The notes beneath the pieces were generated by a model. The model was given only the letters and a program-made list of their open reading frames with translations. It was not told the origin of the DNA and did no database searches. A program made the position numbers and the translations under genes. A stretch of 17,466 nucleotides of DNA from a virus, in the IMG/VR virus record IMGVR_UViG_3300025121_000749. One strand, 5' to 3'. This document shows, one piece after another, positions 12,491-13,048 of the stretch. Each line of letters opens with the position of its first letter. Positions within the stretch are counted from its first letter, which is position 1.

Positions 12491-13048
12491 ATGGCTATTA
12501 AATTGATTTGTGAGTTTGCAAAACCCAACGAACAAACCTTCGCGACATCGCCGATCAGGATTGGCAGGCTACCATCCGCCAGTTTTTGTATCGACCACCC
12601 TGACGTCGGTAAAATGCAAGCGGTTATTGAGCGAGAAAAAGATACATATTACATCTTTGATTTGACTGCTACTAACCCCACGAAACTGAACGATCATACA
12701 GTAAGCCGTGCCAAGTTGAATGGTGGCGACCTATTGAAGTTTGGACGGGTCGTAGTATCCGTTTACACTGATGTAAGCGACGAAGAGTTGGTTGATCACC
12801 GCCGGCAAGCTGCGACAGCAGGCCTTAAACAAGCCGCTGCTAAGCTAGAAAAAGAGACAGTAGTTGTCACCGCTGGCGGCGGTTTGGTTAGACTAGAGTT
12901 CAACGGCTTGCTAGCAATACGCAGTATACACATTGACGATCTAGTCGTAGGCGATCGTGAGATGTTGCGGGATTTGTTGTTTGCTGCTCTTGCAGACGTA
13001 CCGCCCAAAATGTATGCCATCATAGGAAAAATCGCAACCGAGGTCTAA
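12491..13048 (+). CDS. FHA domain - YbaB/EbfC nucleoid-associated DNA-binding domain fusion protein
   Basis: The N-term FHA signature is 'IRIGR...DHPDVGKMQAVIERE.DTYYIFDLTATNPTKLNDHTVSRAKLNGGDLLKFG'. C-term 'TVVVTAGGGLVRLEFNGLLAIRSIHIDDLVVGDREMLRDLLFAALADV' matches E. coli YbaB '[49 protein letters not shown]'. GAAGGTG SD upstream. Confidence 0.75.
   Translation: MAIKLICEFAKPNEQTFATSPIRIGRLPSASFCIDHPDVGKMQAVIEREKDTYYIFDLTATNPTKLNDHTVSRAKLNGGDLLKFGRVVVSVYTDVSDEELVDHRRQAATAGLKQAAAKLEKETVVVTAGGGLVRLEFNGLLAIRSIHIDDLVVGDREMLRDLLFAALADVPPKMYAIIGKIATEV

What the first reader, a model, noticed from the sequence alone, without database searches (positions are those of the whole stretch)
12491..13048. 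Fusion of an FHA phospho-threonine-binding domain to a YbaB/EbfC nucleoid-associated DNA-binding domain
YbaB/EbfC proteins are normally stand-alone dimers of about 100 aa. Here the YbaB-like domain follows an FHA domain in one polypeptide. That arrangement implies DNA binding recruited to, or regulated by, a Ser/Thr-kinase phospho-protein. In a phage it could be a host-takeover or anti-defence factor. I do not recognise this architecture as a described family.
Basis: partly seen in the sequence, partly recalled or inferred. Interest (0 to 1): 0.55.

Follow-up and report, generated by a model that had tools for sequence, protein, structure and literature searches.

The report
Phage FHA–YbaB two-domain fusion protein
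A small gene in what looks like a large uncultivated phage really does join an FHA protein-binding domain to a YbaB/EbfC nucleoid-protein domain, a rare and undescribed combination, but its FHA pocket lacks two of the five residues that normally mark phospho-threonine binding.

Summary

The architecture is rare. I found 10 clusters among 5.8 billion proteins, all from metagenomic, phage-like contigs. I found none in NCBI/UniRef, deposited phages, viral structure models, solved structures or 185,579 species genomes, and no paper mentions both domains.

The "phospho-threonine-binding" reading is not established. Only 3 of the 5 canonical FHA residues are present (G25, R26, N62; the Ser is Gly40 and the His is Gln43). 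The main clade keeps a different 3 of 5. The FHA ligand loops are 91% identical within the main clade but only 31% identical between it and the window's lineage, so this face has been remodelled. No kinase is encoded nearby, and there is no defence or anti-defence signal.

Most likely it is a dimeric, DNA-associated adaptor. The YbaB core would dimerise and bind DNA, and an FHA module at each arm tip would bind a partner protein. It is a new variant of a known kind (compare EmbR and EspM) and of moderate interest.

The parts
12491..13048 (+). FHA-YbaB fusion gene (185 aa plus stop codon)
   Evidence: ORF. Both Pfam domains score above their cut-offs. dN/dS is 0.12 against the 97%-identical relative L001. 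Ten homologous clusters have the same architecture.
12480..12486 (+). Shine-Dalgarno-like GAAGGTG, 4 nt upstream of the ATG
   Evidence: Read directly from the sequence. The upstream ORF stops at 12468-12470, so only about 20 nt separate the genes. L001/L002 carry a 313-bp insert at this spot instead.
12491..12541 (+). Family-specific N-terminal motif MAIKLICEFAKPNEQTF (residues 1-17, FHA strands beta1-beta2)
   Evidence: 82% identical between the window and the main clade, against about 40% overall. Not shared with the nearest FHA-only proteins P0158 and P0173.
12497..12769 (+). FHA beta-sandwich domain (residues 3-93)
12563..12568 (+). Gly25-Arg26, equivalent to Rad53 Gly69-Arg70 (retained here; Lys or Thr in the main clade)
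   Evidence: Alignments to GarA and Rv0020c; family table.
12608..12619 (+). Gly40-Lys41-Met42-Gln43, the beta4-beta5 loop where canonical FHA domains have Ser-x-x-His
   Evidence: Alignments. Ser85 is replaced by Gly and His88 by Gln. The main clade has S-R-M-H.
12665..12682 (+). Thr59-Ala-Thr61-Asn62-Pro-Thr64, the beta6-beta7 loop (Thr106 and Asn107 equivalents retained here; the main clade has G-S-H-S-G-T)
12779..12853 (+). YbaB helix alpha1 (residues 97-121), one 'tweezer' arm, starting 3 residues after the last FHA strand
   Evidence: Model. The main clade has a Pro-rich linker of about 12-15 residues here, which the window clade lacks. Only 18% identical between clades.
12854..12997 (+). 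YbaB beta1-beta3 core and helix alpha2 (residues 122-169), the presumed dimerisation core with motifs AGGGLV...G...D.L...M..DL..AA..D
12998..13045 (+). YbaB C-terminal helix (residues 170-185), the second 'tweezer' arm
   Evidence: Model helix 170-184. 16% identical between clades.

Best explanation
This is a conserved small protein of a lineage of large uncultivated phages. It is built from two borrowed modules. (1) The C-terminal YbaB/EbfC module most likely forms a homodimer through its beta-sheet core. As in stand-alone YbaB/EbfC, it would hold DNA between its protruding alpha1 and C-terminal helices. (2) The N-terminal FHA module is joined directly to the N-terminal end of helix alpha1 through a 3-residue linker. 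In a YbaB-type dimer one FHA domain would therefore sit on each arm. That FHA module would be a protein-binding surface that tethers a partner protein to DNA, or lets partner binding control DNA binding. Shown here: the two domains, their folds, purifying selection, the rarity of the architecture, the phage-like context, and a strongly constrained FHA ligand face in the main clade that has been remodelled in the window's lineage. Inferred by homology: dimerisation, DNA binding, and the position of the FHA domains on the arms. Open: whether the partner must be phosphorylated. I put that at about one in three for the window protein, because it keeps the Arg, Thr and Asn contacts but lacks the Ser and the His.
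Against: The tweezer helices, which bind DNA in EbfC, are the least conserved segments (16-18% identity between clades). The YbaB half is acidic (pI about 5), although the one stand-alone YbaB computed (P0270) is too. The window copy scores below the TIGR00103 equivalog cut-off (37.1 against 49.45 bits). The canonical FHA residue set is incomplete in every family member. No partner gene is conserved across all lineages. The inter-domain geometry of the model is uncertain (pTM 0.66). In addition, the alignment used for the model misplaced the N-terminal helices of the stand-alone YbaB sequences.
Confidence: 0.45

Rival explanations
1. Canonical phospho-reader. The FHA domain binds a phospho-threonine on a host or phage protein phosphorylated by a Ser/Thr kinase. 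This recruits the YbaB DNA-binding dimer or switches it on or off. It is a special case of the best explanation, with phospho-dependence added.
For: The window protein keeps Gly25, Arg26, Thr61 and Asn62, the equivalents of Rad53 Gly69, Arg70, Thr106 and Asn107, with the canonical spacing (PMC5549992 and PMC2615620). The best structural matches are genuine pThr readers: FhaA, GarA, EmbR and DgcB. The nearest FHA-only relatives are in Myxococcota. From my own knowledge, not tested here, that phylum has very large Ser/Thr kinase repertoires.
Against: The Ser85 equivalent, which contacts the phosphate, is Gly40, and the His88 equivalent is Gln43. The main clade instead has Lys (or Thr) for Arg70, His for Thr106 and Ser (or Lys, Gly) for Asn107, so no member has the full set. 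No kinase domain was found in 33 window ORFs or in the precomputed Pfam annotation of three related loci of about 20 kb each. FHA folds that lack the pThr residues also exist, for example the YscD type PF16697, which also matches this family.
Confidence: 0.3
2. Bivalent FHA adaptor or decoy with no DNA role. The YbaB fold serves only as a compact dimerisation scaffold. The protein would cross-link or sequester two copies of a target protein away from DNA.
For: Within the YbaB half, the beta-core and alpha2 (dimer core) are conserved at 43-51% between clades. The DNA-contacting arms are conserved at only 16-18%. In EbfC, dimerisation and DNA binding are separable functions (PMC2665219). The window copy falls below the YbaB equivalog cut-off.
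Against: The DNA-binding residues of the arms are also poorly conserved among genuine DNA-binding YbaB/EbfC orthologues (PMC9610160). Both arms are kept at full length: 84-87 residues align to YbaB structures. The arms are still under purifying selection in the close pair (dN/dS 0.15 for the YbaB half).
Confidence: 0.2
3. A plain phage nucleoid-associated protein whose FHA face is decaying in this lineage. In the window clade the ligand face has lost its original function and the protein acts only as a YbaB-type DNA binder.
For: The ligand loops are the most diverged part of the FHA half between the window clade and the main clade (31% identity, against 58% for the strands). The flexible linker has been lost, and the conserved upstream and downstream neighbours of the main clade are absent here.
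Against: The FHA half shows dN/dS of 0.09 between the window and L001 (2 non-synonymous against 6 synonymous changes), which is not the pattern of a decaying domain. The changes restore the Arg, Thr and Asn canonical contacts instead of randomising them, which looks more like a change of specificity.
Confidence: 0.1
4. Artefact: two adjacent genes joined by a sequencing or assembly error, or chance profile matches.
For: None found.
Against: The same uninterrupted two-domain ORF occurs in independent assemblies from different samples and sources (JGI and Logan), across 10 clusters sharing 36-97% identity with the window protein. Both profile matches exceed the curated cut-offs.
Confidence: 0.01

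Closest known systems
YbaB/EbfC nucleoid-associated proteins (Pfam PF02575, TIGR00103; E. coli YbaB 1pug, H. influenzae 1j8b, B. burgdorferi EbfC)
   Different: The domain is not stand-alone: a 95-residue FHA domain is fused to the N-terminus of alpha1. It is encoded in a phage-like gene block and not in the dnaX-ybaB-recR neighbourhood. It lacks the C-terminal G(L/M)xLPPG(F/M) tail seen in stand-alone YbaBs. The window copy is below the equivalog cut-off.
Bacterial pThr-binding FHA domains (M. tuberculosis FhaA/Rv0020c 3poa, GarA 6i2q, Rv1747 FHA-1)
   Different: The phosphate-contacting Ser is Gly40 and the structural His is Gln43, and Pro63 replaces the usual Gly after the Asn.
GltG-type FHA domains of Myxococcota (NCBIfam NF033760, N-terminal FHA of the gliding-motility protein GltG)
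   Same: This is the best NCBIfam match for the FHA half (window 8e-11; P0003 1.5e-21). The 50 nearest FHA-only proteins share the main clade's GK...SRxH...GS signature. The genomic hits are in Kofleriaceae, Sandaracinaceae and Haliangiales MAGs.
   Different: Those proteins carry other C-terminal regions or multiple FHA domains and never a YbaB domain. The family-specific N-terminal motif KLICEFAxPNEQ is absent from them.
FHA plus DNA-binding-domain regulators: M. tuberculosis EmbR (FHA with winged helix and BTAD, PDB 2fez) and mycobacterial EspM (N-terminal FHA with C-terminal helix-turn-helix)
   Different: The DNA-binding module here is a YbaB tweezer dimer, not an HTH or winged helix. The protein is much smaller (185 aa). 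It is phage-encoded. There is no homology outside the FHA domain.

Membership tests
FHA domain (PF00498) | Profile match above Pfam's gathering score | tested here: met
   47.7 bits against a cut-off of 20.7, E 2.2e-12, residues 22-85, covering profile positions 1-67 of 67.
FHA domain (PF00498) | Eleven-stranded beta-sandwich fold | tested here: met
FHA domain (PF00498) | The five conserved residues Gly69, Arg70, Ser85, His88 and Asn107 of Rad53 FHA1 (PMC5549992), which mark pThr-binding FHA domains | tested here: not met
   The window protein has G25, R26, G40, Q43 and N62, so 3 of 5. Spacing is 14/3/19, as in Rv1747 FHA-1. The main clade has G, K, S, H, S, also 3 of 5. The Thr106 equivalent (T61) is present.
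FHA domain (PF00498) | Binding of phospho-threonine peptides | not testable with these tools
   Needs peptide-library, ITC or pull-down experiments.
YbaB/EbfC nucleoid-associated protein (PF02575 / TIGR00103) | Pfam profile match above the gathering score | tested here: met
   43.2 bits against a cut-off of 25.5, E 4.4e-11, residues 106-170. PDB sequence hits to 3f42, 1j8b, 1pug and 1ybx.
YbaB/EbfC nucleoid-associated protein (PF02575 / TIGR00103) | NCBIfam TIGR00103 equivalog cut-off (functional equivalence to YbaB/EbfC) | tested here: not met
   The window protein scores 37.1 bits against a cut-off of 49.45. Relatives P0002 (49.6) and P0003 (56.1) pass.
YbaB/EbfC nucleoid-associated protein (PF02575 / TIGR00103) | Topology alpha1/beta1/beta2/beta3/alpha2 with protruding helices (PMC9610160) | tested here: met
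YbaB/EbfC nucleoid-associated protein (PF02575 / TIGR00103) | Stand-alone protein of about 100 aa in a dnaX / recR neighbourhood | tested here: not met
   The protein is a 185-aa fusion. Its neighbours are phage-type ORFans, with no dnaX or recR. The nearest stand-alone relatives are 88-142 aa.
YbaB/EbfC nucleoid-associated protein (PF02575 / TIGR00103) | Homodimer through the beta-sheet core | not testable with these tools
   Only a monomer could be modelled. The core motifs are conserved, which is consistent with a dimer but not a test. In EbfC, Asn77 is needed for dimerisation. By my hand alignment of the AA.NDA motif, that position is Ala168 here and varies across the family.
YbaB/EbfC nucleoid-associated protein (PF02575 / TIGR00103) | DNA binding through the alpha-helical tweezer arms | not testable with these tools
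   Both arms are present at full length but poorly conserved (16-18% between clades). EMSA is needed.
FHA-containing transcription regulators (EmbR / EspM type) | FHA domain plus an HTH or winged-helix DNA-binding domain homologous to those proteins | tested here: not met
   Only the FHA part matches: EspM NF052403 gives weak FHA-region hits for P0002 and P0003, and EmbR matches only through its FHA domain. The second domain here is YbaB. This is an analogue, not a member.
Known anti-phage defence or counter-defence proteins | Match to a PADLOC model or to an annotated PHROG family | tested here: not met
   No PADLOC match for the protein, for relative P0002 or for the six neighbouring proteins tested. 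PHROG matches only at E 0.3 or worse.

The most novel reading that the evidence does not exclude
This family would be the first YbaB-type nucleoid protein wired to a signalling module. In large phages, a dimeric DNA clamp would have its arms capped by FHA domains. Its DNA binding, or the factor it recruits to DNA, would be switched by host Ser/Thr phosphorylation or by a non-phospho ligand that has changed between phage lineages. In the main clade its expression would be controlled by a dedicated structured leader RNA of about 295 nt. That would give phages a direct link between host phospho-signalling and organisation of the nucleoid or phage genome.
Probability: 0.2. Interest if true: 0.65.

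Novelty: new variant of a known kind. Interest (0 to 1): 0.42.

Why it matters
YbaB/EbfC is one of the most widespread bacterial nucleoid-associated proteins, and its function is still poorly understood. In the review I consulted and in the searches run here it appears as a stand-alone protein of about 100 residues. A naturally occurring fusion to a protein-recognition module is a hint that YbaB-type DNA clamps can be coupled to partner proteins. The fusion is conserved and under purifying selection in a lineage related to huge phages. It offers a compact 185-residue system to test how the tweezer arms work, because the FHA domain sits directly on helix alpha1. The two clades carry different ligand faces on the same scaffold, which gives a natural specificity-swap experiment. 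If binding is phospho-dependent, this would be a phage route from host Ser/Thr kinase signalling to DNA.

Tried and rejected
1. Single-sequence AlphaFold2 gave an unusable model (pLDDT 50.5). It was replaced by the alignment-based model.

2. The AFDB Foldseek search would have shown whether any UniProt protein has both domains. That library was not available.

3. The word-indexed search with the single protein found only one near-identical relative. The profile search was needed to reach the other members.

It was used only to characterise the nearest stand-alone YbaBs.

5. The mixed alignment A5 misplaced the N-terminal helix of the stand-alone YbaB sequences into the FHA region. Column statistics were therefore taken only from the 50 true FHA rows and from the family alignment A3.

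6. A conserved partner gene was sought. BLAST of the neighbours shows none shared by all lineages. The idea of a conserved operon partner for the window protein was dropped.

8. Short proteins with two matched stretches in the exhaustive search were suspected to be independent FHA+YbaB fusions. All ten tested are FHA-only, nine of them with two FHA stretches.

9. These searches found no further members. Megablast and tblastn against deposited phages gave nothing. The IMG/VR scan returned only the contig already known. The JGI metagenome pattern scan gave nothing.

10. Rfam gave no match for the upstream element of the relatives.

11. The hypothesis that the upstream element is a small ORF was rejected. 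By eye on the alignment, substitutions between L006 and L008 are not biased to third codon positions, and L008 lacks the ATG.

Full report

Yes. A 185-codon ORF occupies exactly 12491-13048 on the + strand. A GAAGGTG ribosome-binding-like box lies 4 nt upstream of the start. The next gene's ATG directly abuts the TAA stop.

Pfam finds FHA (PF00498) at residues 22-85, with E 2.2e-12 and 47.7 bits against a cut-off of 20.7. It finds YbaB_DNA_bd (PF02575) at residues 106-170, with E 4.4e-11 and 43.2 bits against a cut-off of 25.5.

A sequence search of the PDB hits the YbaB structures 3f42, 1j8b, 1pug and 1ybx with the C-terminal half. It hits GarA, FhaA/Rv0020c and kanadaptin with the N-terminal half.

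A single-sequence AlphaFold2 run was poor (pLDDT 50.5). A model built on a 114-row alignment reached mean pLDDT 92.3. That alignment combined the family, FHA-only relatives and stand-alone YbaBs. The model shows:
- a beta-sandwich at residues 3-93;
- after only three residues, a 25-residue helix (97-121);
- three strands;
- helices 156-167 and 170-184.

Two caveats apply to the model. The alignment misplaced the N-terminal helices of the stand-alone YbaB rows. The pTM of 0.66 means the relative orientation of the two domains is not reliable.

**2. Is it a real, selected gene?**

A 97%-identical copy lies on a 29-kb JGI contig that IMG/VR lists as viral (L001 = L009). Between the two copies, Nei-Gojobori counting gives 12 synonymous and 5 non-synonymous differences. 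That is dN/dS 0.12 overall, 0.09 for the FHA half and 0.15 for the YbaB half. The counts are small. All relatives are single uninterrupted ORFs of 193-201 aa.

**3. How common is the architecture?**

- An exhaustive phmmer scan of 1.84 billion cluster representatives found only three full-length matches (P0001, P0002, P0003). The other 147 listed hits match the FHA half only. Ten hits were checked directly: the nine shortest with two matched stretches, and one long single-stretch hit. Nine carry two FHA stretches, one carries a single FHA domain with other repeats, and none has a YbaB domain.
- A profile search of 5.8 billion proteins found ten clusters with both Pfam domains. All are 185-201 aa. 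All come from JGI or Logan metagenome assemblies. None comes from NCBI or UniRef. JGI's pipeline labels three of them 'DNA-binding protein YbaB' or similar.
- No deposited phage encodes the protein (tblastn).
- None of 185,579 species-representative genomes encodes a full-length relative. Only FHA-only hits appeared there.
- A pattern scan of JGI metagenome contigs added nothing.
- No paper in the library mentions YbaB together with 'FHA domain'.
- Of the 120 closest relatives of the C-terminal domain, 119 are ordinary single-domain YbaB/EbfC proteins of 88-142 aa, mostly from Gammaproteobacteria. The other is a tandem-YbaB protein.

What I could not exclude is an independent FHA+YbaB fusion elsewhere that scores below the 52-bit bottom of the exhaustive list. 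The AFDB library that could have tested this was unavailable.

**4. Context**

All long ORFs in the window are on the + strand and tightly packed. Recognisable genes are:
- a DNA methylase;
- DUF4326;
- an 882-aa protein with major-vault-protein shoulder and repeat domains;
- a YpsA-SLOG protein;
- an ADP-ribosylglycohydrolase;
- an NT5C nucleotidase;
- DUF1653.

The rest are ORFans. There are no tRNAs.

The MVP-like protein matches, at about 40% identity, only three 'uncultured phage' records of 462-735 kb (LR756500, LR756501, LR756503). One family member lies on a 142.7-kb contig. In the three long contigs the fusion gene lies 5-8 kb downstream of the MVP-like gene, near nucleotide-metabolism genes. 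Of all the window's proteins, only the MVP-like protein and the fusion are detectably conserved in the L006 and L008 lineages. The fusion therefore behaves like a core gene of this phage group and not like a sporadic accessory gene.

No Ser/Thr kinase or phosphatase domain was found in 33 window ORFs. The precomputed Pfam annotation of the related loci lists no kinase. It does list a Metallophos protein in L006 and in L008. PADLOC and PHROGs give nothing for the protein.

**5. Anatomy of the FHA half**

The literature gives five conserved residues for pThr-binding FHA domains: Gly69, Arg70, Ser85, His88 and Asn107 of Rad53 FHA1. Arg70 and Ser85 contact the phosphate, and Thr106 and Asn86 also contribute (PMC5549992 and PMC2615620).

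Alignments to GarA and FhaA and the family alignment map these positions as follows.

| Rad53 FHA1 residue | Window protein | Main clade (9 clusters) |
|---|---|---|
| Gly69 | G25 | G |
| Arg70 | R26 | K (T in one cluster) |
| Ser85 | G40 | S (G or A in two clusters) |
| His88 | Q43 | H |
| Thr106 | T61 | H |
| Asn107 | N62 | S (K or G in two clusters) |

The window's spacing is 14/3/19, the same as in Rv1747 FHA-1. Each clade therefore keeps a different three of the five core residues, and no member has the full set.

The 50 nearest FHA-only proteins form a coherent subtype. They have Lys at the Arg position, Ser and His retained, and Lys or Arg at the Asn position in 47 of 50. The best NCBIfam match is the N-terminal FHA domain of the Myxococcus gliding protein GltG. 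The genomic hits are in Kofleriaceae, Sandaracinaceae and Haliangiales MAGs, all Myxococcota.

Region-by-region identity is informative.
- Within the main clade, the three canonical ligand loops are the most conserved part of the protein. They are 91% identical pairwise, against 70% for the strands and 65% for the other loops.
- Between the window clade and the main clade, those same loops are the least conserved part of the FHA half. They are 31% identical, against 58% for the strands and 82% for the N-terminal 17 residues.

So the ligand face is functional and constrained in the main clade. It has been rebuilt in the window's lineage, and the rebuild restores Arg, Thr and Asn while losing Ser and His. 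With dN/dS of 0.09 in the FHA half, that looks like a change of specificity and not decay. The N-terminal motif M(A/P)(I/L)KLICE(F/H)AxPN(E/D)Qx-F is specific to the family and nearly invariant. Its role is unknown.

**6. Anatomy of the YbaB half**

The core motif AGGGLV...G...D.L...M..DL..AA..D is invariant or nearly so across the family. The beta-core and alpha2 are 43-51% identical between clades.

The two 'tweezer' helices are only 16-18% identical between clades. In EbfC these helices carry the DNA-binding residues, while the beta-core dimerises (PMC2665219, PMC9610160). The review notes that those residues are also not conserved between EbfC and H. influenzae YbaB.

The YbaB half has a pI of about 5, similar to the one stand-alone YbaB that was computed (P0270, pI 4.9). 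The YbaB halves of P0002 and P0003 pass NCBI's TIGR00103 equivalog cut-off. The window copy, at 37.1 bits, does not.

The main clade has a proline-rich linker of about 12-15 residues between the domains. The window clade lacks it, so its FHA domain is joined almost rigidly to the start of alpha1.

**7. Most likely mechanism**

By homology, the C-terminal module dimerises through its beta-core and holds DNA between its helical arms. Because the FHA domain is fused to the N-terminal end of alpha1, a YbaB-type dimer would carry one FHA domain on each arm. This position is an inference from the published description of the dimer, not something I modelled.

The FHA ligand face is strongly constrained in the main clade, and it binds some partner. 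That partner is either brought to DNA, or its binding alters the arms and therefore DNA binding. I give this reading a confidence of 0.45.

The rivals are:
- a DNA-independent bivalent FHA adaptor that uses YbaB only as a dimer scaffold (0.2);
- a plain phage nucleoid protein with a decaying FHA face (0.1);
- an artefact (0.01).

**8. Comparison with what is known**

The protein is a member of the FHA and YbaB superfamilies by profile and by fold. It fails one defining feature of each functional family: the full pThr residue set for FHA, and the equivalog score and stand-alone organisation for YbaB.

Functionally, the nearest analogues are FHA-plus-DNA-binding-domain regulators. In EspM, the C-terminal half with a predicted helix-turn-helix binds DNA, and the authors propose that the FHA domain regulates the protein or its oligomerisation (PMC7002343). 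EmbR is the other example. The DNA-binding module here is unrelated to theirs.

**9. Verdict**

This is a new variant of a known kind: a rare, phage-restricted domain combination that is undescribed in the sources I could search. It is of moderate interest (0.42). It is a clean, testable lead on how YbaB clamps can be coupled to partner proteins, but it has no functional data and an atypical FHA pocket.

**10. Side observation**

In four main-clade loci the gene is preceded by a promoter-like TTGACA-N17-GATACA box. A conserved GC-rich element of about 295 nt follows it. Its consensus fold has a 27-bp closing helix in which 8 pairs carry changes on both sides. The fold has 64 pairs in all, 22 of them with compensatory changes. 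Each copy folds on its own into the same closing helix, and the element is single-copy per locus. It has no Rfam match.

The window lacks this element and has about 20 nt between the genes. The 97%-identical relative L001 has an unrelated 313-bp insert at the same spot.

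Noticed in passing
L006:9700-9990, L008:9706-9990, L019:158-430, L004:83-365 (absent from the window, which has only about 20 nt of spacer at 12471-12490): A conserved GC-rich non-coding element of about 295 nt lies directly upstream of the FHA-YbaB gene in main-clade relatives. It is preceded by a TTGACA-N17-GATACA promoter-like box. RNAalifold gives a 27-bp closing helix in which 8 pairs changed on both sides, plus inner hairpins (64 pairs, 22 with compensatory changes). Each copy folds on its own into the same helix, and the element is single-copy per locus. 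It has no Rfam match. Candidates are a structured 5' leader, an RNase III site or an sRNA.
   Followed up: partly
window 12464-12486 compared with L001:9684-9996: The 97%-identical relative L001/L002 carries a 313-bp insert between the upstream gene and the FHA-YbaB gene, which the window lacks. The insert cannot be aligned to the main-clade element. It contains a GGGGCTTTTTT stretch that looks like a terminator. The window copy is therefore probably co-transcribed with the upstream gene, and L001's may not be.
   Followed up: partly
window 2346-4994 (+): An 882-aa protein carries major-vault-protein shoulder (PF11978, 3e-29) and Vault_3 repeat (PF17795, 3e-11) domains. It is conserved at 45-48% identity in L006 and L008. 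In the phage collection it matches only the 462-735-kb uncultured phage records LR756500, LR756501 and LR756503, at about 40% identity. It has no PHROG, NCBIfam or PADLOC match. A vault-protein-like gene as a core gene of a large-phage lineage is unusual.
   Followed up: partly
L003:832-1254, L006:10591-11055, L008:10572-11024, L019:1007-1429: In L003, L006 and L008 the FHA-YbaB gene overlaps a downstream gene of 140-154 aa that is 55-60% identical between these lineages and has no Pfam hit on record. L019 has an overlapping 140-aa gene at the same position, which was not compared. In L006 and L008 the fusion gene follows a conserved 665-687-aa protein (58% identical). Neither neighbour has a detectable homologue in the window or in L005.
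   Followed up: partly
window 13471-13914 (+): A 147-aa ORF two genes downstream contains two CPGCxGxG motifs of the DnaJ zinc-finger type (weak PF00684 hit, E 2.5e-4, below the cut-off). It has no other annotation.
   Followed up: no
window 306-1580, 1537-1851, 6202-6720, 8018-8959, 10974-11669: The window holds a cluster of nucleotide- and ADP-ribose-related genes: an N6/N4 DNA methylase, DUF4326, a YpsA-SLOG protein, an ADP-ribosylglycohydrolase (1e-68) and an NT5C 5'-nucleotidase. This set could relate to DNA modification or to countering host defences based on NAD or ADP-ribose. That idea was not tested.
   Followed up: no
FHA-only proteins P0158-P0267; loci L010-L014: The nearest FHA-only relatives form a coherent FHA subtype. 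All 50 have Lys at the canonical Arg70 position, and 47 of 50 have Lys or Arg at the Asn107 position, while the Ser, His and Thr are retained. The subtype is found in Myxococcota MAGs and resembles the N-terminal FHA domain of GltG. Whether this subtype binds phospho-threonine is unclear to me.
   Followed up: partly
protein P0268 (178 aa, ENA contig of 862 bp): This protein has two YbaB domains in tandem in one polypeptide. It is another non-standard YbaB architecture, and it was the top hit of the C-terminal-domain profile search.
   Followed up: no
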